Positions 420-13,741 are shown, counted from the stretch's first letter. The stretch is DNA of 64,000 bases from an uncultured delta proteobacterium (GCA_963764695.1 CAVXTW010000015.1:349845-413844), one strand, 5' to 3'. Numbers and translations: made by a program. Notes: generated by a model not told the origin, from the sequence alone.

Positions 420-512
420 TCGCGCCGAAAGGTGTCCAAGAGGTGGCAGTTCGACCGTCAGGGTGACGGATGGCGCGTGACCGTCCGCAGCCCGCAGCCG
501 AGAGGAGACGTC

Positions 513-2564
513 ATGAGCGTTTCTGGAACAGGAAGAAGCCCGATCGCGATCGCCGCGGCCACGATGTGCCTGGCCATCGGTCTCGCGGCATGCGGAGACG
601 ATCGCTCCAGCGGTGCCTCCATCGAGATAGACGGCGAGGCCGGGCCGAGCGCGAGCGCGGAGCTCGGGTCCGATCGCGGACGGATCGCCGGCTCGGTATG
701 GGAGGACGCCGACGGCGACGGACGCTTCGATCGACACGAGGAGGGCCTGCGCGGCGTGCGCGTGTACCTCGACGACAACGACAGCGGCGTCCTCGACGAC
801 GGCGAGCGCGAGACCACCAGCAAGGCGCGCGGCCGGTATTCGTTCGGCGGACTTTCGGCGGGCACCTACAACGTGCGCCAGGAGGTCCCGTTCGGATTGC
901 GCAACACGACCGGCGGCGAGGGGCCGTCGGTGACGCCGATCGCGGTCGAACGCTCACCGAGCGCGAGCATCATCGGCGGCGCGGTGACGACCATCGAGGA
1001 GTATCCGTTCATGGTCGCCGTGGGTGCCCTCTTCGAGGGAGAGTTCTTCCAGTTCTGCGGCGGCTCGCTCATCGGCGATCGCTGGGTGGTGACGGCGGCG
1101 CACTGCACGGAAGGATCCGTTCCGGAGGAGGTCGCCGTGCTCGTCGGCACCAACGACGTGAACGACGGGAGCGGGCAGGTCTTCGAGGTGGCCGCGCTGC
1201 ACATCCACCCCGACTACATCCCCTTCCCGGACGAGCCGACCGACGAGCCCTTCTCCGTCTTCGCCGGCTTCGACATCGCCTTGTGGGAGCTCTCGACGCC
1301 GGTCGCCCTGGCCGAGAGCGAGCTGAACACGGTCGAGATGCTGCCCGCCGGCACGCAGCTGGACCGGACCGGAACCCTGGCCACCACCATCGGCTGGGGC
1401 GTGACCGATCTCGACAGCGACCTCCTGCAGGAGGTCCACACGCCGATCGTCGACCAGGACGCGTGCCACGAGGTCTACTCCGACTCCATCAACTTCGAGA
1501 CCCAGATCTGCGCGGGCACCCCGGAGGGCGGCGTCGACGCCTGTCAGGGTGACAGCGGCGGCCCGATGCTGGTCCGCAGCCGGGACGACAAGGAGTGGCG
1601 GCTCTCGGGCCTCACCAGCTACGGCAACGGATGCGCCCTGCCCGGCAACCCGGGGGTCTGGGCGCGCGTCTCCGCGCTCTCCGACTGGGCCGAGGCGACC
1701 GCGCGCGAGCCATCGCGCGTGCACCGCGTCGAGGTCCGCGCGGGACGCACCGAGGCGGCCGACTTCGGCGACCAGACCACGCTGCGACCCGATCGCGAGC
1801 GCATCGACCCGCGCTGGCAGCTCACCAACCTGAGCACCCAGCTCGAGGGCGAGGACCGTCTCGCGCTGAGCTGGACCATCATCGACGAGGCGCGCCACCC
1901 GCGCCCGTTCGAGTGCAGCATCGACCTCGACGGGCCCGGCCCCGCCTCCAGCGAGCAGCTGTCCTGCGCCGCGGGCCCCAACCACGCCGAGATCGCTGCC
2001 CCACCGGCTGGCCTCTATCTCTCCGAGCTCGTCGCCGCCAGGTCGGGCGCGAACGAGAGCTTCCGTCGAAATCCGCGCGTCATGGTCGGGACGCCACCGG
2101 TCAGCTCGGTCGACGGGGCCTTGACCGAGGACGACCCGCCCGATCCCGACTACCTCCCCGATCGGTACTTCATCGACTACTTCGATCTGGCGGGTCTGAG
2201 CGGGCAGAAGGCCGTCATGGTCCGGGTGACGACGACGGACTTCATCCCGTTCGTGAGCCTGTACGACCGCGATCTCCGCGAGGCCGGCGACCCGAACAAC
2301 TTCCTCGATCTCTTCGACTTCATCTTCAACGACGACGGCAGCGTCACGGCGGAGCTCGTCTTCTTTCCCGATCCCGCCATCCGCTACGTCATCGGCGTGT
2401 CGCCGCTCTTCGCCGAAGAGACCGGGAGCTACTCCGTCGCCGTGGTCAACGAAGGCGACCCGGTGGCAACCACGCTCGACATCCCGCCCGCGCCGATCCA
2501 GGCGCGACGGTTCAGGCGCGGCGGGGCGATGATCGAGCTGCCGCCGCTCATCCACCCCCGGTAG
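513..2564 (+). CDS. secreted trypsin-like (S1 family) serine protease lipoprotein with N-terminal SdrD-B/Ca-binding-like domain and C-terminal pre-peptidase-like domain
   Basis: RBS agaggag upstream of ATG 513. Lipoprotein signal MSVSGTGRSPIAIAAATMCLAIGLAAC. S1 catalytic triad motifs IIGG…TAAHC, DIAL, GDSGGP. Motif WEDADGDGRFD. Confidence 0.8.
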   Translation: MSVSGTGRSPIAIAAATMCLAIGLAACGDDRSSGASIEIDGEAGPSASAELGSDRGRIAGSVWEDADGDGRFDRHEEGLRGVRVYLDDNDSGVLDDGERETTSKARGRYSFGGLSAGTYNVRQEVPFGLRNTTGGEGPSVTPIAVERSPSASIIGGAVTTIEEYPFMVAVGALFEGEFFQFCGGSLIGDRWVVTAAHCTEGSVPEEVAVLVGTNDVNDGSGQVFEVAALHIHPDYIPFPDEPTDEPFSVFAGFDIALWELSTPVALAESELNTVEMLPAGTQLDRTGTLATTIGWGVTDLDSDLLQEVHTPIVDQDACHEVYSDSINFETQICAGTPEGGVDACQGDSGGPMLVRSRDDKEWRLSGLTSYGNGCALPGNPGVWARVSALSDWAEATAREPSRVHRVEVRAGRTEAADFGDQTTLRPDRERIDPRWQLTNLSTQLEGEDRLALSWTIIDEARHPRPFECSIDLDGPGPASSEQLSCAAGPNHAEIAAPPAGLYLSELVAARSGANESFRRNPRVMVGTPPVSSVDGALTEDDPPDPDYLPDRYFIDYFDLAGLSGQKAVMVRVTTTDFIPFVSLYDRDLREAGDPNNFLDLFDFIFNDDGSVTAELVFFPDPAIRYVIGVSPLFAEETGSYSVAVVNEGDPVATTLDIPPAPIQARRFRRGGAMIELPPLIHPR

Positions 2565-2577
2565 GGGTTCTGCAGGC

Positions 2578-3258
2578 CTACGCCTCGTCGCTGTCGTCGA
2601 GGCGTCCGCCGCGCACAACGCGAAGCTTGCGGCGAGTCCAGGCGAGCTTGAGCTTCAGCCACCCGCGGCGGGCCGAGCGGTTTCGGTGGAGCAGCGCCGC
2701 ACTGACGCCCAGCAGCTCCGGCAACATCCAGGCGATGCCGTAGAACACGGCAAACACGATCGTGACGGCGACGACGACCGCCACGAGCTCGCGTCCGCGC
2801 ACGATGAGCACGAAGTACGCCCTGACCGGCTGATCGGGGAACTGCCGCGCCCACGCGATCACCAGCGTGTCCGCGACCACCATCCCGCCGAGCCGCGGAA
2901 GGTCCCAGGCGGCCGGCAACAGGAACGCGAGGAGGCAGGTCCCGAAACCCGCGATCAGCACGATGCCGGCGAGGTAGCGCAAGAAGCGCCGCTGACCCCA
3001 GGCTCGCAGCAGATCGGAGCCAAACACGTAGATCGTGACGCACGCGAAGATCAGCGAGAGCGGGCTGCCCTGGATGAACGGCCACGTCACGAGCCGCCAG
3101 ATCTGGCCCCGCCAGATCGCCTCGGGCAGCAGCGCCAGGCGGTGATACAGCGCGCCGCCTGCTCGCGCGTCCATGGCGACGATGAGTGACATCGCCAGCG
3201 TCACCGCGATCAGCACGGTCGTGACCTGCGGGCTCCGGCGCTGGACGATCACCGCCAC
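2578..3258 (-). CDS. polytopic membrane protein, rhomboid-like family (catalytic GxSG not evident; possibly inactive)
   Basis: Several hydrophobic helices. Rhomboid-like TM2 region WRLVTWPFIQG…FGSDLLRAWGQRRFLRYLAGI. No clear GxSG/H dyad seen. Confidence 0.4.
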   Translation of the reverse strand: MAVIVQRRSPQVTTVLIAVTLAMSLIVAMDARAGGALYHRLALLPEAIWRGQIWRLVTWPFIQGSPLSLIFACVTIYVFGSDLLRAWGQRRFLRYLAGIVLIAGFGTCLLAFLLPAAWDLPRLGGMVVADTLVIAWARQFPDQPVRAYFVLIVRGRELVAVVVAVTIVFAVFYGIAWMLPELLGVSAALLHRNRSARRGWLKLKLAWTRRKLRVVRGGRLDDSDEA

Positions 3259-3314
3259 GCGCGCATCATACGGCCGGCGCCGCCGATTATCAGCCCCTCA
3301 TCTGGCGCCCTCGG

Positions 3315-4118
3315 TCAGGGAGCGAGCGAACCGATCTCGACCTGATCGGCGTCGGGACGGTCGCGAGGCGTCCCGTTGACCAGGATGCAAGCTCGCTCCC
3401 AGGGCCGCTGACGCTCGAAGAAGGGCAGCTCCTCGGTCATCCACCACTGCCAGAACGCGGCGGCCTGCTCGGGGTCACCGTTGACGCCCTCGGCGATGTC
3501 GCGTGCGAGGGCGCGCCGCTCGGCCTCATCGAAGTCTGCCTGGACCCAGACCGTGGCGTCGATGAGGCCTGCATGCTCTCGCTGGCTCGCGCCGGTGCCC
3601 TCGACGAGGACCAGGTCGAGACCGGCGGGCACGGTGATGACCCCCTCGCGTCCTCGTCGCTCCCACGCCGGTGGCCGGAACGAGACCGCTCGTCCCTCGT
3701 GCAGGGGATGGAGAACGTCATCGGCGAGCAGATGGCCCCAGCCGAAGAGCGGCTCGTGCCAGGCGAGATCGTCGGTGTGGACCACCGCCGATGCGGCCGC
3801 GTGCCCCTGCAGCCGGGCCGCGAGGGTCAACTTGCCGGCGCCGCCGCGGCCGTCGATGGCGATGATCCGGGGCCGGCCCGGCGGGTCCCCCGCTGCTGCG
3901 ACGATGAGCTCCAGCAGCGCCGGCACGCGAACACGTCGCCACGCGACGGCCTCGGGCTCTCCATCTGGCAGCGTCAATCCATGAGGGTAGCACGCGGTGT
4001 CGTGGCACCAGGCCGTTGACGTCGGCTGCCCGACCAGTGCAGCTGTCCTACGCGATCCGCGCGAATCCGCCCCGTCTGGGACGAAAGACCCATGGTCGGG
4101 ACGCGGGGGCGGCGGCAT
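3315..4118 (-). CDS. P-loop nucleoside/nucleotide kinase-like protein (uridine kinase/AAA family)
   Basis: Walker A motif RIIAIDGRGGAGKLTLAARL. Start chosen at ATG 4116-4118 (MPPPPRP). The longer ORF extends upstream but overlaps the divergent gene. Confidence 0.55.
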   Translation of the reverse strand: MPPPPRPDHGSFVPDGADSRGSRRTAALVGQPTSTAWCHDTACYPHGLTLPDGEPEAVAWRRVRVPALLELIVAAAGDPPGRPRIIAIDGRGGAGKLTLAARLQGHAAASAVVHTDDLAWHEPLFGWGHLLADDVLHPLHEGRAVSFRPPAWERRGREGVITVPAGLDLVLVEGTGASQREHAGLIDATVWVQADFDEAERRALARDIAEGVNGDPEQAAAFWQWWMTEELPFFERQRPWERACILVNGTPRDRPDADQVEIGSLAP

Positions 4119-4142
4119 GGTGGCTCCAAAAGGAGAAGCCAC

Positions 4143-5057
4143 ATGCTCTCGCCAACACACTCGTACGCAGACGTGCTCAAGAGCTCCCTGAAGGTGGCCT
4201 GGACCGAACGTCAGGTGCTCGACGGGAAGAACTTCGACTTCGCGCGGCGGTTCCTGCCGCAACGGCTCTCGGGGGTGGACGACATCCGATGCCTGAACGA
4301 CGAGGAGAAGCTGAAACTCAACCAGATCATGGGCAACGCGTACTGCCACATCTTCGCCTACGTGGAGGAGTACATCATCCCGCAGGCGCTCGAGGCGGCG
4401 CAGCGTGACATCTACGGCGAGGAGACGCGCTTGCGCACGCTGCTGCGCTTCGCCGAGGAGGAGTCGAAGCACCAGGCGCTGTTCCGCGCCTCGATGAGCC
4501 TGTTCGAGAAGGGATTCGGCGTGCAGTGCGATCTGATTCCGGGCCGGGAGGAGGTGGCCAGGGCCGTGCTCGGCAAGTCGCGACTGTGCAGTTATCTACT
4601 GACGAGCATGATCGAGTGGTTCACGCAGCTGCACTACGTGGAGCACGTGAAGGACCGGCGCGACCTCGATCCGCTGTTCCAGGACCTGCTGCGCTACCAC
4701 TGGATGGACGAGGCCCAGCACGCCAGGATCGACTCGCTCCTGATCACCGAACTGTGCGACGAGATCGGCTCGGATGACCGCGAGAAGGCCATCGACGAGC
4801 TGCTCGAGCTCGGCGGCGCGGTTGACGGGCTCCTGTCCCAGCAGGCGGACCTCGACATCGATAGCCTCGAGCGCGTCACCGGGAGAAGCTTCGACGACGG
4901 CGAGCGGAGCGAGATCAAGCAGCACACGCTACGCGCGTACCGCTGGACGTTTCTCGTGTCCGGACTGGAGCACCCGAAGTTCGTGCAGATCGTGTCCGAG
5001 CTGACGCGCGACGGGCGCGCCAAGCTGGAGGCCGCCGCCAGAGCGCTCTCCAGCTGA
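4143..5057 (+). CDS. ferritin-like di-iron protein, AurF/p-aminobenzoate N-oxygenase-like family
   Basis: RBS aaaggag 8 nt upstream of ATG 4143. Two EExxH-type motifs (FAEEESKH, HWMDEAQHA) spaced as in di-iron carboxylate oxygenases. Confidence 0.55.
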   Translation: MLSPTHSYADVLKSSLKVAWTERQVLDGKNFDFARRFLPQRLSGVDDIRCLNDEEKLKLNQIMGNAYCHIFAYVEEYIIPQALEAAQRDIYGEETRLRTLLRFAEEESKHQALFRASMSLFEKGFGVQCDLIPGREEVARAVLGKSRLCSYLLTSMIEWFTQLHYVEHVKDRRDLDPLFQDLLRYHWMDEAQHARIDSLLITELCDEIGSDDREKAIDELLELGGAVDGLLSQQADLDIDSLERVTGRSFDDGERSEIKQHTLRAYRWTFLVSGLEHPKFVQIVSELTRDGRAKLEAAARALSS

Positions 5058-5081
5058 CGCGGCGCGCGCTCGGGATCTTCG

Positions 5082-6155
5082 TCAGGTGCGGAATCCGCGG
5101 TCGCGCGCGAACACGATCGCCTGCGCCCGCGTCCACACACCGAGCTTGTCGAACACGCTGGAGACGTGGTTCCGGACCGTCTTCTCGCTGATCGCCAGGC
5201 TCTCCGCGATGTCTGCGTTGCCGAGGCCGCGCGCGATCAGCGCGAGCACCTCGCGCTCGCGGGCGGTGAGGCGATCGAAGACGGCGTCCGCCGCCGCGGG
5301 CGCCGACACACCCACGAAGTCGAGGACACAATCCTGGAAGCGCGCCCAGGCCGGCTCCTCTTCGAGGAGGATGTGGTTGCGAGAGTCCAGCTCGACGAAC
5401 TGTGCGCCCGGGATGCCGGCCGCGAGCACCCGGCCTTCGGTTGCGGGACACACCTCGTCGTTCCGCGCGTGGAGGACCAGCGTCGGCGCCTGGATCCGAC
5501 CGAGCAGCGCCGTCGCGTCCAGGTCGGCACGGCACTCGAGGATCCTTGCCGCCATCTCTCCCGTGCTGGTCCGGCGGCAGAGCTCGTTGAACCAGGCGAT
5601 CTGCGCGTCGCTTGCCTCCGGCATGAAGCGCCCGGTGAAGACGTGCCGGAAAGCGGGGTTCTCCTTGCCCCAGCCGGCGCGAATGACCTGGGCGATGGCG
5701 CGGAACTCTCGCTCCTGGTCGGCGTCGTCGCGCCGCGCCCAGCCGCGTGCGTAGCCACCGTAAAGGATGAGCCGAGACACGCGCTCGGGATACAGCGCCG
5801 CGTAGCCGATGCAGGTCGCGGCGCCCTGCGAGATCCCGAGAAGGGAGACCGGCTCGACGATCCCGGCCGCCGAGACCACGGCGGCAAGATCCTCGACCCA
5901 CCGCTCGGCCGAAGGGTCGTCGACCTGCCAGTCCGTCAGCCCGCACCCGCGCTGATCAAAGCGCAAGAAACGGAAGTGCTCCCCGAAGAAGCGGATCCAG
6001 TGTCCCCATGCGGGGCTCTCCAGCTCGTACTCGAGGTGCGACAGCCAGTTCGGGGCCTTGACCAGAACCGGCCCCCCGCCCATCTCCGCCCACGCCAGCT
6101 GCACGCCGTCGGTGGTGCGCAAGTAGCGAATGCGCTGGCGGGGCCTCTTCTCCAT
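5082..6155 (-). CDS. alpha/beta-hydrolase fold protein fused to C-terminal LuxR-type HTH domain
   Basis: N-terminal hydrolase motif LLGISQGAATCIGYA (GxSxG-like). C-terminal REREVLALIARGLGNADIAESLAISEKTVRNHVSSVFDKLGV. GGAGG RBS before ATG 6153-6155. Confidence 0.7.
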   Translation of the reverse strand: MEKRPRQRIRYLRTTDGVQLAWAEMGGGPVLVKAPNWLSHLEYELESPAWGHWIRFFGEHFRFLRFDQRGCGLTDWQVDDPSAERWVEDLAAVVSAAGIVEPVSLLGISQGAATCIGYAALYPERVSRLILYGGYARGWARRDDADQEREFRAIAQVIRAGWGKENPAFRHVFTGRFMPEASDAQIAWFNELCRRTSTGEMAARILECRADLDATALLGRIQAPTLVLHARNDEVCPATEGRVLAAGIPGAQFVELDSRNHILLEEEPAWARFQDCVLDFVGVSAPAAADAVFDRLTAREREVLALIARGLGNADIAESLAISEKTVRNHVSSVFDKLGVWTRAQAIVFARDRGFRT

Positions 6156-6441
6156 GGTCGGGCCTCCTTCGATTATAGACCTCGTTCGGTCGGCCGCGTG
6201 AGCCATTGGTTCGAGGCCGTCACCCGGCGCCGCCGGCGGCCACGATTCGCTTTGCGAGGCCTCCCCCGCCCGCGGCCGACGAGGACACCGAGTCGCCGTG
6301 TATCAGTGACTGGCACGTACCAGATACGTTCCAGTCTGAAATATCGATTCAGGCAAGAATTCCTTTGTCGCTCGATTGCAGCGCCGCAGTACGTTCTCCC
6401 GTGCCGGCCAGCGTCGGCCAGGCGTTTCAAAGGAGGGTGTC

Positions 6442-6855
6442 ATGCGTCGTTGTTCCGTGCTGATCATGAGTGTGGCATTGAGTCTCGGACTCGCATCTTG
6501 CGTCCTCGACGAGGGCGACCCGTCGGACGAGATGGGTGAAGTCGACGAGGCAGAGGAGGTCGGAAGCGCATCGCAGGCGCTGACGCGCGACCAGCCGGCC
6601 AGCAGCGGAGGCGAGGTGGCGGCCGCACCCGGCGACCCGCAGCTCGCGCCCGCCGGTCAGGTCTGCGGCGGCCTGTGTCGGGAGAGCGTCAACTGGGCCT
6701 ACTCGACCTGCCGCTGGAACGTGACCCAGGACTGCCGCGAGCGGATCGTCGAGTTCTGCCACAACCGGAACTGGAGCTTCATCGACGCCTACTGGCGGAG
6801 CACCTGCTACGAGGGCTGGGTGCGCCTCTGGCCCGCAGTGACGGCCGACAAGTAG
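6442..6855 (+). CDS. small secreted Cys-rich lipoprotein (unknown function)
   Basis: RBS aggagg then ATG 6442. Lipobox MRRCSVLIMSVALSLGLASC. 8 Cys in the mature part. Confidence 0.5.
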   Translation: MRRCSVLIMSVALSLGLASCVLDEGDPSDEMGEVDEAEEVGSASQALTRDQPASSGGEVAAAPGDPQLAPAGQVCGGLCRESVNWAYSTCRWNVTQDCRERIVEFCHNRNWSFIDAYWRSTCYEGWVRLWPAVTADK

Positions 6856-7430
6856 CCCTCTGCCGGCACGCCGCGTCCAAGCTCGGCGGCCAGCCGCTTG
6901 CGCGCGGCGTGCAGCCGCGACCAGATGGTCCCCTCGGGCACGCCGAGGATCTCGCCGATCTCGCGGTGCGATAGCCCATCGACCGCGAACAGCGACAGCA
7001 CCGCGCGGTGATCCGCCGAGAGCACGCCGAGAGCGCGCTGGAGCGCCTCGCTCTCCTCGCGGCGGATTGCCGGATCGCCCGCGAAGGGAGCCGCGGGCTC
7101 CTCCTTCATCTCCTCGACGCGCCGGGACACCTCGCGCGCCCGGTGGCGCAGAGCTTCGCGCACCGCGATGCGGTACATCCAGGTCGACAGGCGCGCGTCG
7201 GCCCGGAAGCCGGGCAGCGCTCGGAACACCGAGACGAAGGCTTCTTGCAGAGCGTCCTCCGCAGTGGCGCGGTTGCCGCAGAGATGCAGACAGAGCCGGA
7301 ACAGCGGCTCGCGGAAGACCTCGAAGATCCGCGTCTGCGCCGCAGCTCGCTCGCGGGCTGCCGACGAGACGGCCGCCGCCAGGAGCGCGCGCTCCTCCGC
7401 GACCTCGAGCCTGGGCGCGCGCCCGTCCAT
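6807..7430 (-). CDS. ECF (sigma-70 family) RNA polymerase sigma factor
   Basis: Region 2 (AEDALQEAFVSVFRAL…LSTWMYRIAVREAL) and region 4 (HREIGEILGVPEGTIWSRLHAARKRL) motifs. Confidence 0.8.
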   Translation of the reverse strand: MDGRAPRLEVAEERALLAAAVSSAARERAAAQTRIFEVFREPLFRLCLHLCGNRATAEDALQEAFVSVFRALPGFRADARLSTWMYRIAVREALRHRAREVSRRVEEMKEEPAAPFAGDPAIRREESEALQRALGVLSADHRAVLSLFAVDGLSHREIGEILGVPEGTIWSRLHAARKRLAAELGRGVPAEGYLSAVTAGQRRTQPS

Positions 7431-7433
7431 CCG

Positions 7434-8087
7434 CTACTCGAGCTCGGCCCGCTCGCGCAGGAGACGCGGCAACACGACGAGGCGCGACCGCAGCGCGAGG
7501 ACGACGAAGAGCAGGACCAGCATCGCGCCCCCGGCGATCCGCCAGGGCGTGAGCTCGCCCGCCGCGAGGAGCCCGCCGACCGGAAGCAGGGTGAAGAAGG
7601 GCAGCACGAGCGCGTTCTGTTTCTCGATCTTGATCAACCTGTCGAGCTGTGACCGCAGCAGGACCAGGAGCGATCCAGGCGCGTGCTCCACCTCCCGAAC
7701 CTCGGCGATCGACCGGCGGGCGACGATACGGCCCCACACCACGACGGCGAGCCCGGCGATCAAGCTGGTGGCGATGTAGCCCCGCCCGAACACCAGGCCG
7801 ACGAGCGGGGCCGCGACGACCACCGCGGCGAGCCCCTTCCAGACGCCGGCGAGCATCTGCTTCCGCCAGCGCTCCACATTCCGCCCGAGCTCGCTCCAGT
7901 CCACGTCGCTGATGGCATCCGCCGCCTGCGTCCTCATGGCTTGCTCCAGCTCTCTCGACCGCGCCTCGAAGGCGCGGCAGGCCTCGCACGACGACAGATG
8001 CTGCGCCAGCCTGCCGGCCGGTTCCGGATCGAGCGCTCCGTGGAGCCGCTGCTCGATCGCAACTTCGAAGTCGTCGCAACTGGTCAT
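7434..8087 (-). CDS. membrane-anchored zinc-finger anti-sigma factor
   Basis: N-terminal HxxxCxxC motif (HLSSCEACRAF) followed by TM helices. Lies immediately upstream of the ECF sigma gene on the same strand. Confidence 0.7.
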   Translation of the reverse strand: MTSCDDFEVAIEQRLHGALDPEPAGRLAQHLSSCEACRAFEARSRELEQAMRTQAADAISDVDWSELGRNVERWRKQMLAGVWKGLAAVVVAAPLVGLVFGRGYIATSLIAGLAVVVWGRIVARRSIAEVREVEHAPGSLLVLLRSQLDRLIKIEKQNALVLPFFTLLPVGGLLAAGELTPWRIAGGAMLVLLFVVLALRSRLVVLPRLLRERAELE

Positions 8088-8198
8088 GGCCTTCGAGCTT
8101 CCTGTCCCTTTCGAGTCAGGAGGGTCGCCAGACCTTCACACGGGCCGGTGAAAAGTTGGGTCCCCTGCCAGGGCCGCAAGATCAGGCGCAGAGCAGGC

Positions 8199-9896
8199 TC
8201 AGTAGTTGACCCAGTTGGCGATCCGGCCTGCGTTCACGTTCATCGGTCCGACCCTCGTGACCGTCCAGCCGCCTGGCGGGGCGGGCGTCCAGATGTCGCG
8301 CGGGGGGACCGGGCCATTCGCTCCCCAGGCGATCTCGAACTGCTGGTTGGCTGCGTTGTACAGGTTCGCCGCCGCGGCCACGTTCGGCTGGAGGTTCCGG
8401 GAGCGATCGGCGACGGGGATGGCGGTGAACCCATCCTCGTCGCCGTCGCCATGGTGGACGCGCATGAAGGTGATGTAGCCCATGAGATCGGCAGCGTCGA
8501 TTCCGCGCAACGCGATCTCCGGGAAGCCGGCCCCGGCGAGCGCTATCTGGAGCGCACGGGTGTCAACATAGTTCGAGAGCGCCGGCATCCGGCACAAGTA
8601 CAGCTGCACGTGATCGACGTAGAGCTGCGGCGCGTCGTTCTGGCCGGCGTTCGCGCCCGTTCCGGTCCGAGCGACATGGACCCTCTGCCGCTTGGCCAGC
8701 GGAATGGTGCTGAGCTGGGGGAACGTCACGTTGATCTGGAACGCGGCCAGGTCGGGGGGATTGGCAAACTGAAAGGTGTTGCCGACGCCGCCGATGGTCA
8801 CGGCCGGCGTGACGCTGACGGCGGTGAAGAGGCAATTGTCGTTCTGATTGCAGCGGTAGTAGATGTGTCGGCGGTATTCCTCGCGGTGGAACGGATGCCA
8901 CGCCTCGCGCATCTTGGTTCGCTCGGCGTAGACTTGCGACGCCGCCTTGCACCACAGGCCGCGAGCGTCCCTGATCTCGCCGTAGGGACGGCCGTCGCCG
9001 CGCCAGCAGTACGAGACGACAGCGGTCTGTCTGACGAAGGTGGCCGCGAATGCCTGTGCCGCCGCCGCGCTGCCCCCCCATGCTGGATTGGTTCTCCAGG
9101 CGGTGTGCAGCTGCACCTGGGCCAGCCTCGGCGGGCCGACGATCGCGCGGTCGGTGCACTCGGCGATCGGCATGAAGCCCGAGCGAAGCGCCACCACCAT
9201 CGCCTCCTCGAACACGTCGGCTTTCGGGCGATACGCGTGCGTGATCTGGATGGGTGTATACGACTCCATCCTCGCCATCACCGTCTGTGCGCCATCCATC
9301 CGCTCCGGTAGCTCGTGGGTCTGCAGGAACGTGGTCGCGTTGAACGCGCTCGCGAGACCCGGGCCGGCGCCACCGTTCGCCAGAGCCAGCTGGACGGGCC
9401 GGTCGTAGAAGACGTTGAGGAAATCGACCATCCACTCCTTGCTGCGCTGCGGGACGTGGTTCCACTGCTGGCGTTCCATGAAGAAGTACGCGATCCAGCC
9501 CTTGGCATCGAGCGTGTCATCGTGGGCGCCGACGAGGCAGAACAGCGAGTTCGCCCGCCACACCTTTTCGGCATGGGCCACCACGAAGTCGGCGGGAAAG
9601 GCGAGCGCCGCCTTCACATCGAGCAGCATCGCGTACAGTCGCGACTCGGAGCCGGTCAGCGTGGTCCTGCTGATCTCACGGAGAGCCGCGACCGGCGGAT
9701 CCCCGACCGCCGGTGTCCTGTCCGCCAGGTAGCTCACCGCCGTCTGCAACCCGGCAGCGTTGCCGAGAGTGACCCGCTGCGTCAGCAGCGCGACCGCCGC
9801 GATGCTCTCCCCGCTGCGCCACGCGCTCCACGAGCTCTCGATCGGATAGCGATCGACGACATAGCGCTTCACCGCCTCGACGATGTTCATCGCCAC
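8199..9896 (-). CDS. hypothetical protein, 565 aa, no signal peptide, no recognisable motif
   Basis: Long ORF with codon bias matching neighbours. No family recognised by eye. Confidence 0.5.
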   Translation of the reverse strand: MAMNIVEAVKRYVVDRYPIESSWSAWRSGESIAAVALLTQRVTLGNAAGLQTAVSYLADRTPAVGDPPVAALREISRTTLTGSESRLYAMLLDVKAALAFPADFVVAHAEKVWRANSLFCLVGAHDDTLDAKGWIAYFFMERQQWNHVPQRSKEWMVDFLNVFYDRPVQLALANGGAGPGLASAFNATTFLQTHELPERMDGAQTVMARMESYTPIQITHAYRPKADVFEEAMVVALRSGFMPIAECTDRAIVGPPRLAQVQLHTAWRTNPAWGGSAAAAQAFAATFVRQTAVVSYCWRGDGRPYGEIRDARGLWCKAASQVYAERTKMREAWHPFHREEYRRHIYYRCNQNDNCLFTAVSVTPAVTIGGVGNTFQFANPPDLAAFQINVTFPQLSTIPLAKRQRVHVARTGTGANAGQNDAPQLYVDHVQLYLCRMPALSNYVDTRALQIALAGAGFPEIALRGIDAADLMGYITFMRVHHGDGDEDGFTAIPVADRSRNLQPNVAAAANLYNAANQQFEIAWGANGPVPPRDIWTPAPPGGWTVTRVGPMNVNAGRIANWVNY

Positions 9897-10085
9897 AGGT
9901 CTACGCCCAAGCCGCCCTCCCCTCCATGGGACGTTTCGTCCTCCTCATGTCAGCACCAGCCGCGCGCGGCGTGACGATCAGCGCGGTGGCTGGTCGTCAG
10001 CTGGGTTACGATCCACATTTCCAGGTGGATCTGGAGAAGGTCTGCGGTGCTCCCGGCGTACAGATGGAGGGGACAGGAGGAAGGA

Positions 10086-11696
10086 ATGAAGGGGACGCCG
10101 GGAAAGAGGAGTCGCTCGAACGACACCTACGCCGATTCCTCGCCCGTCCAGGTCGCGCCGGGCAAGCGCACCCTGGTGCAGCAGCGCTATGGCGCTGCCC
10201 CGCCGGCACCCCTGCCGGCTGAGGCGGTTCCGGGGGCCGACAGCGCCGAGGAACGGAGCGAGGAGGGTACACCCGAGCTCGGCAAGAACGCCGACGCCAT
10301 GGAGCCCGCTGTCCTGCGCAAGGAATCAGGCGGATCGGTCCCGTCGGACAAGGCCAGTTCGGCCCGTTTCGAGGGCGACAAGAAGCTCGAGGACGTTGCC
10401 GCCGGCCTCTCGACTGTCAAGCGGGGCGGCCGCGGGGTCAACGTGACCAAGGTGCAGCAGGCGCTGATCGACCTCGGATACAAGCTCCCCAGGTACGGCG
10501 TGGATGGCAAGTTCGAGGGCGAGACCAAGGCGGCGGTCGTGAAGTTCCAGAACGACCATGGTCTCGCACCGACGGGGGAGCTCGACAAGGACACCCTCGC
10601 CAGGCTCGACGCGATCTACGACACCCGCAAGCCGTACATCGATGCCGCCAAGCACGACCCTGCCCATCCCGGCACGCGCACGCTGTCGGCGGCCGACAAG
10701 GCCGATGCCCTCGCTGCCATGGTTCCCCAGGCCGGGGCCGGCGGCGCCCCGGCCGTGTTCACCGATGTCGTCGGCGGCAAGGCCTACGGCGACGAGATCC
10801 GCGATCATCTCCAGGCCCTCGTGAAGGCCTTCCACAAGGAGCTGTTCGAGGACAAGGAACCGCTGCGCGCCGACCCGGTGAAGAACTTCCACGAGTGGAG
10901 CACGATGGAGGGGCCGGCGAAGGCAGCCAAGCAGGTGACCGACACGCTGTACGATTCGAACTACGGCGGCGCCGCGGCCTTTCCGGCCATGACCCACGCC
11001 GGCGGCAACCTGGTCGATCAATGGGACGACGAGATCAGCCGCAACGCGGCGCTGTCGCCGGCCCAGAAGAAGGCGAAGGCGGACGACAAGGTCCGTTACC
11101 TCATCGATTCGAACTGCGAGGAGATCAATCACCGGCACGGCGCGGTCCCTTCGAACCCGACCGAGAAGGCGATCCTGCAGCCGATCGTGGACAGCTTCGT
11201 GGCGACGGCGGCGAAGGTGCAGACGATGCTCGAGCTCGACATCGGCTGGGAGGGCGCCCAGCTCGAGGGCGTGGTGTACCTGCAGCGCTACAAGAGCACG
11301 AACGCCGATGCGGCGACGGCCAAGGACCAGAACCGGATCCAGATGTGGGATCTTTTCCAGACCTGCATCCACGAGTACATCCACACGCTGGCGCACGCCG
11401 ACTACATCGCGTGGGCACAGACCTTCAGCGCCGCCGACGACAACACGCGCTACAACACCCTCGTCGAGGGGTTCTGCGACTTCTTCACCCTCAACGTGCG
11501 CAAGGCGATGGCGATCGACGCGACGATCCAGGGGCTGGTCGAGGGCCCCTACGCCAACGGCAAGGCGCCGGCCCCGGATCGGTCCGGCGTCTACCCGTCG
11601 CACGCCCAGGCGGAGCAAGTCGTGTCGATCGTCGGGATCAAGAACGCCCAGCGCGGATACTTCGGCGGCAAGACGTCCGGGATGGGAGGGCCGTGA
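10086..11696 (+). CDS. peptidoglycan-binding (PG_binding_1-like) domain protein with HExxH zinc-metallopeptidase-like motif; no signal peptide
   Basis: RBS aggagga before ATG 10086. PG-binding repeat VTKVQQALIDLGYKLPRYGVDGKFEGETKAAVVKFQNDHGLAPTGELD. HExxH motif FQTCIHEYIHTLAH near the C-terminal third. Confidence 0.6.
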   Translation: MKGTPGKRSRSNDTYADSSPVQVAPGKRTLVQQRYGAAPPAPLPAEAVPGADSAEERSEEGTPELGKNADAMEPAVLRKESGGSVPSDKASSARFEGDKKLEDVAAGLSTVKRGGRGVNVTKVQQALIDLGYKLPRYGVDGKFEGETKAAVVKFQNDHGLAPTGELDKDTLARLDAIYDTRKPYIDAAKHDPAHPGTRTLSAADKADALAAMVPQAGAGGAPAVFTDVVGGKAYGDEIRDHLQALVKAFHKELFEDKEPLRADPVKNFHEWSTMEGPAKAAKQVTDTLYDSNYGGAAAFPAMTHAGGNLVDQWDDEISRNAALSPAQKKAKADDKVRYLIDSNCEEINHRHGAVPSNPTEKAILQPIVDSFVATAAKVQTMLELDIGWEGAQLEGVVYLQRYKSTNADAATAKDQNRIQMWDLFQTCIHEYIHTLAHADYIAWAQTFSAADDNTRYNTLVEGFCDFFTLNVRKAMAIDATIQGLVEGPYANGKAPAPDRSGVYPSHAQAEQVVSIVGIKNAQRGYFGGKTSGMGGP

Positions 11697-11707
11697 GTGG
11701 GAGATAC

Positions 11708-12295
11708 ATGGCGCTCCTGGCCGGGCTCATCGCCTGCGGACCCAGCAGCCCGAGCTCGACGAACGGCGCCGGCGGCGGAGCGAAAGGATCGGACATGACC
11801 GTGATGAGCTGCGAGGAGGTCCGCGAAGCGATCGGTGCGCGCCGGTTCATCGACTGGCGCGGACTGCCGCCCGGGTGCACGGCCGAGCAGCTCTTCGGCG
11901 TGCCGCTCGACGACTCGTGGGGCGCGCTGCCCCTGGGGGATGCGCGGGAGCAGGCGCGCTCGCGGCTTCTCGAGCTCCCCGGCTACTACCGTCCTCTCGC
12001 CTATGCGCGCGACGGCGTGGTGGTCGCGTTCGACGCAATGAACCCGGAGCTGGACGGCGATGCGCCCGCGCTGGCCGAGAGCCTCGGCCCACCGGATGCC
12101 ACCGTCGACTGGACCTTCGGAACGGTGTCCATGCCTGGCGGCGAGCAGGTCTACGCAGCGCGCGGCATCACGCTATCCCTCAATCCAGAGACCCAGGGCG
12201 TCGTGTACGTGACAGTCTACGCGCCGACCACGGTCGAAACCTATCTCAAGCGGCTGCGCCCGCCGCGAGAGAAGCGGCCTCTCCGGCGCCCCTGA
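11708..12295 (+). CDS. lipoprotein of unknown function
   Basis: Lipobox MALLAGLIACG. Starts 12 nt after the upstream gene stop, in the same orientation. Confidence 0.5.
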   Translation: MALLAGLIACGPSSPSSTNGAGGGAKGSDMTVMSCEEVREAIGARRFIDWRGLPPGCTAEQLFGVPLDDSWGALPLGDAREQARSRLLELPGYYRPLAYARDGVVVAFDAMNPELDGDAPALAESLGPPDATVDWTFGTVSMPGGEQVYAARGITLSLNPETQGVVYVTVYAPTTVETYLKRLRPPREKRPLRRP

Positions 12296-12317
12296 GCTTG
12301 TCGAGCGTATGCGACGC

Positions 12318-12663
12318 GCGCGAAGCGCACGCGGTCGCACGGAGCGGAGGGAGTGCGAGAGAGGGGACTCGCCACGCGCCGGAATGGAACGCGAAGCGAA
12401 GCGCAGCGGAGCGAAGCCGTTCCCCGGCGCGTCCTCGAGGACCCTCTCCCCTGCGGGGAGCGCAGGGACGCGGGCGCGAAGCGGACGCGGTCGCACGACC
12501 GGAGGGAGTGCGAGAGAGGGGACTCGCCACGCGCCGGAATGGAACGCGAAGCGAAGCGCAGCGGAGCGAAGCCGTTCCCCGGCGCGTCCTCGAGGACCCT
12601 CTCCCCTGCGGGGAGCGCAGGGACGCGGGCGCGAAGCGGACGCGGTCGCACGACCGGAGGGAG
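12318..12663. repeat. tandem ~160-bp direct repeats (2 complete units plus the tRNA junction); each unit carries the last ~26 nt of tRNA-Leu and internal palindromes (gtcctcgaggac; ctcccctgcggggag)
   Basis: Units begin gcgcgaagcg(c/g)acgcggtcgcac…ggagggagtgcgagagaggggactcg at 12318, 12473 and 12633. The third unit runs into the genuine tRNA. Confidence 0.7.
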
Positions 12664-12746
12664 TGCGAGAGAGGGGACTCGAACCCCCAAGCCTTTTGGG
12701 CACGGGAACCTAAATCCCGCGCGTCTACCAGTTTCGCCACTCTCGC
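12664..12746 (-). tRNA. tRNA-Leu (anticodon TAG), long variable arm
   Basis: Minus-strand sequence GCGAGAG-TG-GCGAAACTGGTAGACGC-G-CGGGA-TTTAGGT-TCCCG-[15-nt variable arm]-GGGGG-TTCGAGT-CCCCT-CTCTCGC-A folds as a class II cloverleaf. Confidence 0.85.
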
Positions 12747-12775
12747 AGGTGGCGCGAAGGTAGCACGCGGTCCGG

Positions 12776-13678
12776 TCAGGCGATCCGGTGGACGAGGGGC
12801 TCGCCGCGAAACACGCGCGTCACGTTGGTCGAGACGATGGCGGCCATGCGGGACATGTTCTCTTCGGTGGAGCCGCCGACGTGCGGCATGACGACCACGT
12901 TGGGGCGCTGGTAGAGGGGATCATTCGGATCCCAGGGCTCGTCCCAGAAGACGTCGAGGCCGGCGCCGCCGAGGTGGCCGCTGTCGAGGGTGCGCTCGAG
13001 GGCCGCGCGGTCGATGACGGGGCCGCGGGCGCAGTTGATGATCAGCGCTCCGGGCTTCATCGATGCGAAGGCGCGGTCGTCCATCAGGGCGCGGGTCGCC
13101 GGGGTCAGCGGGCAGTGAAGACTGACCACGTCCGCCTCGTGCAGGAACTTCTCCCATTCGGCGTCGGTGCGGCGCGACTTCACGGCCGTCACCTTCATGC
13201 CCACGCCCTCGCCGAGGCGGGCCAGCGCGGTGCCGGTGACGCCCATGCCGATGATGCCGAGGGTGCGGCCGGCGAGCTCGCGGCCGATCGTGCTGCCGAT
13301 GGTGGCGCGGCCGAACGCGACCTGGGCTTCGGGGGCGCGGCGGAGCAGGGCCAGCATCAAGAACAGCGCCAGCTCGGCGACCGCCGGGCCGCTCTGGCCG
13401 GGGGCGTTGCAGACCGGGATGCCGCGGGCGCGGGCGGCCTCGAGATCGATGTTGTCGGTGCCGACGGCCGGCTGCTGGATGAGCCGCAGGCGGCTCGCGG
13501 CTTCGATGACCGCCGCGGTTATCGGGCCGTTCGACGGCAGGACCACGTCATAATCGACGACGACGCGCTCGAGCGGCTGGGCGCGGTCCCAGATGTCCAC
13601 CTCGGAGCCGGGCGGCAGGGCGCGCGCGATGATCTCCACGAACGAATGCCAGCCAGATCCGCAGAAGAGCGCTCGCAC
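12776..13678 (-). CDS. D-isomer-specific 2-hydroxyacid dehydrogenase family protein (NAD-binding)
   Basis: Motif GRTLGIIGMGVTG. …MPHVGGST… catalytic region. GTG start at 13676-13678 inferred (uncertain). Confidence 0.7.
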   Translation of the reverse strand: MRALFCGSGWHSFVEIIARALPPGSEVDIWDRAQPLERVVVDYDVVLPSNGPITAAVIEAASRLRLIQQPAVGTDNIDLEAARARGIPVCNAPGQSGPAVAELALFLMLALLRRAPEAQVAFGRATIGSTIGRELAGRTLGIIGMGVTGTALARLGEGVGMKVTAVKSRRTDAEWEKFLHEADVVSLHCPLTPATRALMDDRAFASMKPGALIINCARGPVIDRAALERTLDSGHLGGAGLDVFWDEPWDPNDPLYQRPNVVVMPHVGGSTEENMSRMAAIVSTNVTRVFRGEPLVHRIA

Positions 13679-13741
13679 GGCCCGGAGCCTAGCATCCCCG
13701 GCGCGGCTTAACCTGCTCGACTCTGCCGGGTCGATAGCCCT

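What the first reader, a model, noticed from the sequence alone, without database searches (positions are those of the whole stretch)
12318..12746. tRNA-Leu(TAG) followed by a tandem array of ~160-bp units that each end with the tRNA 3' terminus
Downstream of the tRNA-Leu gene (minus strand) there are two full direct repeats and a third partial one of ~160 bp. Every unit terminates with the last ~26 nt of the tRNA (…CGAGTCCCCTCTCTCGCACTCCCTCC). Units also contain perfect palindromes (GTCCTCGAGGAC; CTCCCCTGCGGGGAG).

Duplicated tRNA 3' ends are the classic footprint of site-specific integration at tRNA genes (attL/attR). A tandem array suggests repeated integration/excision scars or a replicating tRNA-derived repeat.

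The array sits between the tRNA and a block of three orphan genes (8199-12295) with no recognisable housekeeping function.
Basis: seen in the sequence. Interest (0 to 1): 0.6.

Follow-up and report, generated by a model that had tools for sequence, protein, structure and literature searches.

The report
RtT-like repeat array after tRNA-Leu
Downstream of a myxobacterial tRNA-Leu gene sits a copy-number-variable tandem array of a conserved, highly structured ~150-nt unit that ends with the tRNA's last 18 nt; it looks like an independent counterpart of the old E. coli tyrT/RtT repeats, not phage-integration scars.

Summary
A 155-bp unit is repeated 2.35 times directly downstream of tRNA-Leu(TAG) on the minus strand. 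Two copies are identical and the third is a diverged 60-nt stub. Each copy carries the tRNA's last 18 nt, starting in the T-loop.

The integration-scar reading is not supported. No integrase is nearby, the 4.1-kb gene block is not bracketed by the repeats, and no phage, plasmid or viral contig carries the unit.

Units of the same family follow the orthologous tRNA in five other related Polyangia-like lineages, in 1 to at least 2.5 copies. They share a three-hairpin fold: 93% of cells pair and nine pairs show compensatory changes. In that fold the tRNA-3'-end copy pairs with an upstream complement. The unit occurs nowhere else in about 170 kb of related DNA or in the representative genome.

The architecture matches the E. 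coli tyrT locus, checked here: 178 bp x 3.1, each copy holding the last 19 nt of tRNA-Tyr paired to an upstream complement, annotated as RtT/rttR. Rfam's RtT model does not match these units.

Best reading: a selected, structured tRNA-trailer module that expands and contracts by unequal recombination. Transcription, strand and function are inferred, not shown.

The parts
12664..12746 (-). tRNA-Leu(TAG) gene, CCA not encoded. Its last 18 nt (12664-12681, CGAGTCCCCTCTCTCGCA) are the sequence that recurs in every unit.
   Evidence: ARAGORN; Rfam RF00005 at 52.7 bits; sequence.
12757..12765 (-). TGCTACCTT, an extended -10-like motif 10 nt upstream of the mature tRNA 5' end. It is conserved as TGnTAnnnT in relatives. 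Inferred tRNA promoter, not verified.
   Evidence: Sequences. The consensus promoter scan found nothing here.
12509..12663 (-). Unit 1 (155 nt, tRNA sense): trailer, hairpin 1, hairpin 2, long arm, ending with a copy of the tRNA 3' end.
   Evidence: CM R1 hit at 106.8 bits.
12354..12508 (-). Unit 2, 100% identical to unit 1.
12312..12353 (-). Truncated unit 3: trailer only (~42 nt). Together with the preceding 3'-end copy (window 12317-12371), it is 98% identical to the start of the first unit of relative L006. It is followed by unique DNA and the convergent lipoprotein gene's stop codon (12293-12295).
12509..12526 (-). tRNA 3'-end copy no. 2 (CGAGTCCCCTCTCTCGCA). It forms the 3' strand of the long arm and closing stem of unit 1.
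12354..12371 (-). tRNA 3'-end copy no. 3. It forms the 3' strand of the long arm and closing stem of unit 2.
12624..12644 (-). Hairpin 1 of unit 1 (same in unit 2 at 12469-12489). Its sequence differs between unit types but the pairing is kept.
   Evidence: (helix 1: 3 pairs with changes on both sides).
12606..12620 (-). Hairpin 2 of unit 1 (same in unit 2 at 12451-12465): a short, near-perfect hairpin with a 3-nt loop in the consensus of all unit types, each with a different stem sequence.
   Evidence: (helix 2: 3 pairs with changes on both sides).
12517..12600 (-). Long arm of unit 1 (same in unit 2 at 12362-12445). The upstream complement AGGGUCCUCG pairs with the 3'-end copy CGAGUCCCCU and encloses the nearly invariant hairpin CGCGCCGG-GGAACG-loop-CGUUCC-CCGGCGCG. 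The loop holds a (GCGAA)n 5-mer run.
   Evidence: (helices 3-5, 90-100% paired).

Best explanation
The array is a lineage-conserved, structured 3'-trailer module of the tRNA-Leu(TAG) transcription unit, built like the RtT repeats of the E. coli tyrT operon.

Each ~145-155-nt unit has four parts:
- a short trailer;
- two small hairpins;
- a long arm whose distal hairpin is almost invariant;
- a copy of the tRNA's last 18 nt as its 3' strand.

That 3'-end copy pairs with an upstream complement. In some unit types it also pairs with a GCGAGAG acceptor-like strand, which gives a tRNA-like four-way junction ending in the discriminator A.

Inferred: the units are transcribed with the tRNA from its own promoter. 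They act as the processing and termination region of the precursor, and may be released as stable RNAs as RtT is.

Shown: the number of units changes quickly between genomes. Inferred: the changes arise by unequal recombination or slippage between the repeated 18-60-nt 3'-end segments and by microhomology deletions. The two identical copies in this window would be the most recent duplication.

The array is not the product of integrase-mediated insertion.
For: Shown:
1. Tandem array with the tRNA 3' end in every unit.
2. Units of the same family follow the orthologous tRNA, downstream of the same dehydrogenase gene, in five other related lineages: L002/L014, L005, L006/L038, L031 and L033. The flanking gene has diverged down to ~74% nt / 76% aa identity. 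Copy numbers are 1, 1 plus a 36-nt deletion derivative, 2, and at least 2.5.
3. The L006 arrangement was recovered independently from a second metagenome, L038.
4. At least two old unit lineages plus local duplications: identity is 100% within this window, 92% within L031 and 78% within L006, while L006u2 vs L005u1 is 83% and L006u1 vs L001u1 is 86%.
5. Conserved structure: 39 pairs, 93.3% of cells paired against 32-56% when partners are slid. Nine pairs change on both sides against 0-2 in the slid controls. No shuffle out of 500 reached the observed values.
6. Every unit folds on its own into the same four-way junction.
7. The unit is exclusive to the tRNA locus. There is one site in the only related genome hit by the genome-collection scan. 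The CM finds nothing else in 176 kb. The hairpin arms are not dispersed.
8. E. coli tyrT has the same architecture: 178 bp x 3.1, a 19-nt tRNA-Tyr 3' end in every unit starting in the T-loop, and an upstream GGGGAAGGAU pairing with it. The region is annotated rttR/tpr and is hit by Rfam RtT.
9. RtT is described as released from the tyrT primary transcript during tRNA processing (PMC4986893; PMC3318445).
10. The copies carry the genomic trailer (GCA-CTCC), not CCA, so they arose by DNA duplication and not from mature tRNA.
Against: - There are no transcript data, so co-transcription, processing and any function are inferred.
- The strand is unresolved. Consensus folding energy is the same for sense and antisense (-56.45 vs -57.02). 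Only a weak excess of G-U over A-C cells (9 vs 4) favours tRNA-sense RNA.
- Only 8 distinct units from 6 related lineages were available, and the structure was derived from the same sequences, so the covariation statistics may be inflated.
- Two relatives (L003 at 87% aa, L035 at 71% aa) lack the unit, so it is dispensable.
- Synteny breakpoints fall at or next to the last 3'-end copy in L005 and L006. That is also what recombination at an att core would give.
- Rfam RtT does not match the units.
Confidence: 0.55

Rival explanations
1. Integration/excision scars. The tRNA 3'-end copies are attL/attR cores left by tyrosine-integrase elements that inserted at the T-loop-to-3'-end site of tRNA-Leu. 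The units are what remains of such elements, or of their attP arms (tRNA 3' end plus terminator).
For: - The repeated segment starts in the T-loop, a classic crossover sublocation.
- Unrelated low-GC phage contigs carry just such a tRNA-Leu 3' fragment plus terminator as an attP-like site.
- Gene content downstream of the array differs in every relative, and the breakpoints abut the last 3'-end copy.
Against: - No integrase in the window or in any relative's downstream flank.
- The 4.1-kb block has no 3'-end copy at its distal border.
- The unit-to-3'-end junction is the same in all units. Independent deletions of element interiors would not give that.
- Hairpins are maintained by compensatory changes.
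- The unit is absent from viral contigs, phages and plasmids.
- An element of 137 nt cannot encode anything.
Confidence: 0.12
2. Neutral minisatellite. A chance tandem duplication of the tRNA 3' end plus its terminator hairpins drifts in copy number, with no role beyond the terminator each unit already contained.
For: - Copy number varies, and the unit is lost in L003 and L035 with no obvious consequence.
- Identical copies point to recent slippage.
- GC-rich sequence forms hairpins easily: mononucleotide-shuffle z is only -1.7 for one unit, and antisense folds equally well.
Against: - The unit persists across lineages whose flanking gene is only ~74% identical.
- The distal hairpin is nearly invariant.
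- Nine pairs show compensatory changes, and hairpin 2 is rebuilt with four different stems.
- The same peculiar feature, a complement pairing with the 3'-end copy, arose in E. coli RtT.
Confidence: 0.2
3. DNA-level element. The hairpins act in single-stranded or cruciform DNA, or as protein-binding palindromes. Examples would be a bidirectional terminator or insulator between convergent genes, or a recombination hotspot that drives the downstream variability.
For: - Sense and antisense fold equally well.
- The array sits between the convergent tRNA and lipoprotein genes.
- The downstream region is hypervariable.
- RtT-like sequences in enterobacteria have been linked to BIME elements that act as bidirectional terminators (PMC2965389).
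Against: - Loop length of the long hairpin varies from ~15 to 26 nt, which does not fit a fixed-spacing duplex-DNA binding site.
- G-U cells outnumber A-C cells (9 vs 4) on the tRNA-sense strand.
- In L005 the downstream gene is co-directional, so the convergent arrangement is not conserved.
Confidence: 0.08
4. Assembly artefact. The second, 100% identical unit in this window is a collapse or expansion error of a long-read metagenome assembly.
For: - The source contig has long-read-assembler-style naming, and its sister assembly L002 shows many frameshifted genes.
- The two units are exactly identical.
Against: - Multi-unit arrays occur in independent short-read assemblies: L006 and L038 from two samples, and L031.
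- Even if the copy number here were wrong, the unit plus the extra 3'-end copies remain.
Confidence: 0.05

Closest known systems
E. coli tyrT operon distal repeats / RtT RNA (rttR, Rfam RF00391; Egan & Landy 1978 and Rossi et al. 1981 from memory; Bosl & Kersten 1991 as cited in PMC3318445 and PMC4986893)
   Same: - A tandem array directly downstream of a tRNA gene: 178 bp x 3.1 there against 155 bp x 2.35 here.
- Every unit contains the tRNA's 3'-terminal ~18-19 nt, starting inside the T-loop.
- An upstream segment complementary to that copy pairs with it and encloses branched hairpins.
- The unit is not found as a free-standing gene.
All checked here.
   Different: - No sequence or covariance-model similarity: RF00391 gives no hit at E<=10.
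- Different tRNA (Leu-TAG, not Tyr) and a different phylum (Myxococcota, not Gammaproteobacteria).
- CCA is not part of the copy, because it is not genome-encoded here.
- There is no second full tRNA gene in the operon.
- Release of an RNA and any stringent-response effect are untested here.
attL/attR duplications of tRNA 3' ends made by tyrosine integrases of phages, ICEs and genomic islands (P4-like elements at tRNA-Leu; named from general knowledge)
   Same: Direct repeats of the tRNA 3' end beginning in the T-loop, next to a region of variable gene content.
   Different: - No integrase.
- The repeats are 155 nt apart and do not bracket the variable genes.
- The intervening DNA is a conserved structured unit.
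- No element-borne copy was found.
REP/BIME-type palindromic repeats
   Same: GC-rich imperfect palindromes in intergenic DNA. Members similar to rtT were reported to belong to BIMEs (PMC2965389).
   Different: Not dispersed: a single locus per genome, always after tRNA-Leu(TAG).
tRNA-like structures and pseudo-tRNAs in tRNA operons (acceptor/T-arm minihelix mimics such as mascRNA; named from general knowledge)
   Same: In type-2 units the closing stem is GCGAGAG/CUCUCGC plus discriminator A, stacked on a GGGGACUC/GAGUCCCC helix. That reproduces the acceptor and T stems of the neighbouring tRNA.
   Different: - Not recognised by ARAGORN or by Rfam's tRNA or mascRNA models.
- Similarity of the unit body to the rest of tRNA-Leu is not above shuffled controls.
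- The 'T-loop' is replaced by a ~70-nt hairpin.

Membership tests
RtT-type tRNA-operon repeats (E. coli tyrT; Rfam RF00391) | Tandem units lie immediately downstream of a tRNA gene on the same strand. | tested here: met
   E. coli reference.
RtT-type tRNA-operon repeats (E. coli tyrT; Rfam RF00391) | Each unit contains the 3'-terminal ~19 nt of the upstream tRNA. | tested here: met
   18 nt occurring 3 times at 155-nt spacing. In E. coli, 19 nt at 178-nt spacing.
RtT-type tRNA-operon repeats (E. coli tyrT; Rfam RF00391) | The 3'-end copy pairs with an upstream complement and encloses internal hairpins. | tested here: met
   MFE folds of all units, consensus helices 3-5, E. coli units.
RtT-type tRNA-operon repeats (E. 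coli tyrT; Rfam RF00391) | Match to the Rfam RtT covariance model (homology). | tested here: not met
   No RF00391 hit at E<=10 in window 12100-12900 or L031 1500-2008. The same library hits E. coli four times at 133-138 bits.
RtT-type tRNA-operon repeats (E. coli tyrT; Rfam RF00391) | Released as a discrete RNA from the tRNA primary transcript. | not testable with these tools
   No expression data. Described for E. coli in PMC4986893 and PMC3318445.
tRNA-targeted integrative element scars (attL/attR) | Direct repeats of the tRNA 3' portion. | tested here: met
tRNA-targeted integrative element scars (attL/attR) | A tyrosine or serine recombinase gene within or next to the bracketed DNA. | tested here: not met
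   Pfam scans of window ORFs from 432 to 13711. Precomputed Pfam of the flanks in L001, L002, L003, L005 and L035.
tRNA-targeted integrative element scars (attL/attR) | The repeats bracket the accessory gene block. | tested here: not met
   Window 8192-12353 is absent from L005, but no 3'-end copy lies at its distal border. A mismatch search of the whole window found only the three copies.
tRNA-targeted integrative element scars (attL/attR) | An element-borne attP copy exists in phages, plasmids or viral contigs. | tested here: not met
   0 hits for the unit or junction in IMG/VR. blastn hits in phages and plasmids cover only the tRNA.
tRNA-targeted integrative element scars (attL/attR) | Relatives show a clean empty site (tRNA directly followed by the distal flank). 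| tested here: inconclusive
   L003 and L035 lack units, but their downstream DNA is unrelated, so no empty-site junction can be reconstructed.
REP/BIME-like dispersed palindromic elements | Many copies dispersed through the genome. | tested here: not met
   One site in the representative genome. No other CM hits in 176 kb. Arm motifs occur only in the arrays across 169 kb.
tRNA gene / pseudo-tRNA | Recognised by tRNA models, or significant sequence similarity to the tRNA body. | tested here: not met
   ARAGORN. Rfam tRNA hits only the true gene. In local alignment against shuffles, 29-74% of shuffles score at least as well for five of seven units, and 1.8-2.4% for the two L031 units.

The most novel reading that the evidence does not exclude
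RtT-type units may be a convergently evolved, selected class of tRNA-mimic RNAs. In this class a piece of the tRNA operon's trailer reproduces the acceptor/T-arm helix of the neighbouring tRNA, using a literal copy of its 3' end. It is released by the tRNA-processing enzymes and acts on machinery that reads tRNA 3' ends, such as RNase P, RNase Z, the CCA-adding enzyme, or RelA and the stringent response (the role proposed for E. coli RtT). An independent origin in Myxococcota, with covariation-supported structure, would mean the architecture is functional and not an E. coli curiosity.
Probability: 0.2. Interest if true: 0.65.

Novelty: new variant of a known kind. Interest (0 to 1): 0.42.

Why it matters
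The 178-bp tyrT repeats of E. coli have been known since the 1970s, and their product RtT still has no settled function. I could not find them treated as more than an enterobacterial oddity.

This window holds an unrelated sequence in a distant phylum, at a different tRNA, built to the same plan: the tRNA 3' end copied into every unit and paired to an upstream complement. It is conserved with compensatory changes and kept at the locus over long divergence.

That suggests either a common generative mechanism at tRNA 3' ends or a common function for tRNA-end-mimicking trailer RNAs. It also gives a second system in which to test this.

Practically, duplicated tRNA 3' ends are not by themselves evidence of integrated elements. 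Island-finding tools that key on such repeats can be misled by arrays like this one.

Tried and rejected
1. Dispersed REP-like element. Rejected: the genome-contig scan with the hairpin pattern gave one relevant site and 13 single chance hits in unrelated phyla. The CM and motif scans agree.

2. Other tRNAs in the window (Lys, Arg at 35.5-35.7 kb) carrying similar arrays. They do not.

3. Known RNA family. Only tRNA is found.

4. Pseudo-tRNA origin:
- The junction GTGGCGA|GTCCCC looked like the tRNA 5' end fused to the T-loop, but L031 has GAAG there, so this was dropped.
- GCGAGAGGGCGAG in type-2 units resembles the tRNA 5' end, but alignment scores are not above shuffles.
- This is left as unproven.

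5. Retro-copy of mature tRNA. Rejected: the copies carry the genomic trailer CTCC, not CCA.

6. Small protein like E. coli tpr. Unit lengths (155, 153, 146, 144 nt) differ by non-multiples of 3, and the variable hairpins change sequence freely, so no frame is conserved. The long ORFs through the array are the stop-poor frames expected at 74% GC.

7. First metagenome scan with the full tRNA pattern found nothing. The second, with a shorter pattern, found L031 plus four unrelated tRNA-Leu/tig loci.

8. Viral hits to the tRNA 3' end are low-GC phages unrelated to this lineage.

9. The contig with the closest differing context (P0004, JGI 3300041965) could not be read: no DNA was available. L039 ends before the tRNA.

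10. Strand assignment from folding energy was uninformative.

11. My first guess at the lipoprotein's exact product was not on record.

Full report
**1. The observation**

ARAGORN and Rfam place a tRNA-Leu(TAG) gene at 12664-12746 on the minus strand. Tandem Repeats Finder reports a 155-bp period, 2.3 copies and 98% matches at 12318-12681.

Read in the tRNA sense, the repeat starts inside the tRNA at T-loop position C56. The last 18 nt of the gene (CGAGTCCCCTCTCTCGCA, ending at discriminator A73) recur at 12509-12526 and 12354-12371. CCA is not encoded.

Units 12681->12527 and 12526->12372 are 100% identical. The third copy keeps only about 60 nt (2 substitutions, 2 indels). It then runs into unique DNA and the stop codon of a convergent lipoprotein-like ORF. 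The 26-mer spanning the copy occurs three times in the window and never in 100 shuffles.

**2. Source and relatives**

The flanking 2-hydroxyacid dehydrogenase (12779-13711, minus strand) has a 100% match on a 764-kb ENA contig, L001. More distant homologues are named Polyangium, Polyangiaceae or Kofleriaceae. The GTDB representative of the sister genome is titled 'uncultured delta proteobacterium MFD03602.bin.2.3'. The organism is a GC-rich (~70%) Polyangia-like myxobacterium.

Fetching the DNA around dehydrogenase orthologues gave a graded series of relatives. The side upstream of the tRNA is syntenic in all of them: dehydrogenase, PSCyt2/PSD1, DUF1501, DUF4893, adh_short, MacB/FtsX. The genes downstream of the tRNA differ in nearly every genome.

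**3. The unit is a conserved family tied to this tRNA**

| Locus | Dehydrogenase identity to window | What follows the tRNA |
|---|---|---|
| Window / L001 | 100% aa | two identical 155-nt units + 60-nt partial copy |
| L002 / L014 | 96% aa | one 153-nt unit, a 36-nt derivative, then the truncated copy |
| L006 and L038 (two independent samples) | 94% aa | two diverged units (153 and 146 nt) + a third 3'-end copy |
| L005 | 85% aa | one unit + a decayed 3'-end copy |
| L033 | 76% aa | one unit + a decayed copy |
| L031 | 74% nt | at least 2.5 units of 144 nt, running off the contig |
| L003 | 87% aa | no unit |
| L035 | 71% aa | no unit |

The 36-nt derivative in L002 is explained by a deletion between two CCGG motifs.

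Unit identities indicate at least two old unit lineages plus recent local duplications:
- 100% within this window, 92% within L031, 78% within L006.
- L006 unit 2 against L005: 83%. L006 unit 1 against the window's unit: 86%.
- The window's truncated third copy is 98% identical to the start of L006 unit 1.

This is birth-and-death with local homogenisation, as expected from unequal recombination among the repeated 18-60-nt segments.

**4. The unit is not dispersed and not on mobile elements**

- A scan of 185,579 species-representative genomes with a 23-base hairpin pattern that matches every unit found only the sister genome, at one site. The other 13 hits are single chance matches in unrelated phyla.
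- A covariance model built from the units finds only the arrays in 176 kb of window plus related loci.
- The hairpin arms alone are likewise confined to the arrays.
- Three IMG/VR scans for the unit, its junction and the 3'-end-plus-trailer found nothing.
- blastn against phage and plasmid collections matches only the tRNA itself.

**5. Structure**

Each unit was taken in the phase 'trailer through the next 3'-end copy'. In that phase the units fold on their own into the same topology:
- a closing stem that uses the end of the 3'-end copy;
- two short hairpins;
- a long arm in which an upstream complement (GGGGACUCG and variants) pairs with CGAGUCCCC of the copy, enclosing the nearly invariant hairpin CGCGCCGG-GGAACG-loop-CGUUCC-CCGGCGCG.

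In type-2 units (L005, L006 unit 2, L031) the closing stem is (G/A)CGAGAG against CUCUCGC followed by A. That reproduces the acceptor stem and discriminator of the neighbouring tRNA, stacked on a T-stem-like helix. In type-1 units (this window, L002, L006 unit 1, L033) the complement is longer (GGGAGAGGGGACUCG) and covers part of the acceptor strand itself.

RNAalifold on eight distinct units gives 39 consensus pairs, and 9 of them change on both sides. Pair counting gives these figures:

| Measure | Observed | Partners slid 1-3 columns | Shuffles reaching observed |
|---|---|---|---|
| Cells paired | 93.3% | 32-56% | 0 of 500 |
| Pairs with compensatory change | 9 | 0-2 | 0 of 500 |

Hairpin 2 is rebuilt with a different stem in each unit type, and L031 converts GGAACG/CGUUCC into GGAAACC/GGUUUCC.

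Caveats:
- There are only eight related sequences, and the structure was derived from them.
- Sense and antisense consensus energies are equal, so the acting strand is not established. A 9:4 excess of G-U over A-C cells leans weakly towards tRNA-sense RNA.

**6. The integration-scar model tested**

- Pfam scans of the window's ORFs from 432 to 13711 show no recombinase. They show a trypsin-like protease, a rhomboid, an ECF sigma / anti-sigma pair, an alpha/beta-hydrolase-LuxR protein, a PG_binding_1 protein and ORFs with no hit.
- The precomputed Pfam of the relatives' flanks shows no recombinase either.
- Against L005, homology stops after the array and resumes at window 8191. The three-gene block (8192-~12311) is therefore a real indel.
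- All tRNA-3'-end copies lie on the tRNA-proximal side of the block, and its distal border has none.
- The block is present in L002 and partly in the unreadable JGI contig of P0004. In that contig it is separated from the tRNA by a further 4.4 kb.
- The unit-to-3'-end junction is the same in all units, which independent deletions of element interiors would not produce.

What remains in favour of the model is that synteny breakpoints abut the last 3'-end copy in L005 and L006, and that the copy starts in the T-loop. I keep this model at about 0.12.

**7. Comparison with the known: E. coli tyrT**

From memory, the E. coli tyrT locus carries 'a 178-bp sequence repeated 3.14 times', each copy containing the last 19 nt of tRNA-Tyr. 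I tested this on MG1655 (L032):
- TRF gives 178 bp x 3.1 at 95% matches.
- The 19-mer AATCCTTCCCCCACCACCA recurs at 178-nt spacing downstream of tyrV and once in the tyrT-tyrV spacer. The 22-mer that reaches further into the T-loop occurs only in the two real genes.
- The region is annotated as ncRNA rttR and tpr, and Rfam RtT (RF00391) hits it four times.
- Folding the E. coli units in the same phase shows GGGGAAGGAU pairing with AUCCUUCCCC of the 3'-end copy, around branched hairpins. That is the same design as here.

[quoted passage not shown] It also notes similarity of rtT to BIME elements that can act as bidirectional terminators (PMC2965389).

RF00391 does not match the window or L031 even at E<=10. 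So this is the same kind of thing, but not a member of that family.

**8. Mechanism**

Shown:
- the array;
- its exclusive linkage to tRNA-Leu(TAG);
- its persistence and copy-number variation among relatives;
- the conserved fold with compensatory changes;
- the pairing of the 3'-end copy;
- the DNA-level origin (the copies carry the genomic trailer, not CCA);
- the lack of integrase or bracketing.

Inferred:
- The tRNA has its own promoter: a TGnTAnnnT motif 10-12 nt upstream is conserved in relatives, although the consensus scan does not call it.
- Transcription runs into the units.
- The tRNA-like closing stem plus long arm provides processing and termination signals, and possibly a stable by-product RNA.
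- Unequal recombination or slippage changes the copy number.

I give this combined reading 0.55. The rivals are a functionless minisatellite at 0.20, integration scars at 0.12, a DNA-level element at 0.08, and an assembly artefact for the second copy at 0.05.

**9. Novelty and interest**

The kind is known (tyrT/RtT), so this is not categorically new. It is an independent, non-homologous instance at another tRNA in another phylum, with better comparative support for its structure than I know of for RtT. I rate it 'new variant of a known kind', interest about 0.4.

The most novel reading not excluded is that such trailer units are a convergent class of functional tRNA-end mimics. I give that a probability of about 0.2, with interest of about 0.65 if true.

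Noticed in passing
window 8192-12311 (three ORFs: 8199-9896 minus, 10047-11696 plus, 11708-12295 plus): The three-gene block is an indel relative to L005. It contains a 565-aa ORF with no Pfam hit, a 549-aa PG_binding_1 protein and a 195-aa lipoprotein-like ORF with an LIAC lipobox. GC is slightly lower (0.66-0.68) than on the other side of the tRNA (0.70-0.75). It is present in L002, and partly present and displaced by a further 4.4 kb in the JGI contig of P0004.
   Followed up: partly
window 12757-12765 (minus strand); same position in L002, L003, L005, L006, L031, L033, L035: A conserved TGnTAnnnT motif (TGCTACCTT here; TGCTAGATT, TGTTAGAGT and TGCTAGAGT in relatives) lies 10-12 nt upstream of the mature tRNA 5' end, in the 29-nt gap after the dehydrogenase stop codon. 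It looks like an extended -10 promoter for the tRNA. The sigma-70 consensus scan does not call it.
   Followed up: partly
L033 7130-7266: After its single unit, this relative carries a different tandem repeat (~34-nt unit TTTCGGGCTCGCGCCTGCGGCGCTCGCACTTTGG, at least 3 copies) that runs off the contig end.
   Followed up: no
L002 (ENA ERZ25039511 contig_3614; same contig as L014): Many genes that are intact in the window are split or truncated here, including the dehydrogenase (193 aa), PSCyt2, MacB and PG_binding. This suggests a frameshift-rich long-read assembly, so single-base differences in its array should be read with caution.
   Followed up: no
L021, L023, L024, L025 (IMG/VR 3300045988 contigs): Low-GC viral contigs carry only the last ~22 nt of a tRNA-Leu plus CCA and a strong terminator hairpin, with no full tRNA. 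These are textbook attP-like sites, flanked by repeated TTGGCAACGG/TTGGAAAC motifs that could be arm-type integrase sites. They are unrelated to the window's lineage.
   Followed up: no
window 12391-12417 and 12546-12572: A (GCGAA)5.4 pentanucleotide run forms the loop of the long hairpin. Its length varies between unit types (loop about 15-26 nt), so it is the most slippage-prone part of the unit.
   Followed up: partly
window 6807-8087 (minus strand); L005 11328-12650: An ECF sigma factor / zf-HC2 anti-sigma pair lies next to the variable block. In L005 the same pair directly follows the tRNA array and is co-directional with it, so there the tRNA trailer abuts the anti-sigma gene's upstream region.
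   Followed up: no
L032 (E. coli NC_000913.3, 1286.7-1287.3 kb): A fifth copy of the tRNA-Tyr 19-nt 3' end and a fourth RtT model hit lie in the tyrT-tyrV spacer. So in E. coli the RtT unit also separates the two full tRNA genes.
   Followed up: partly
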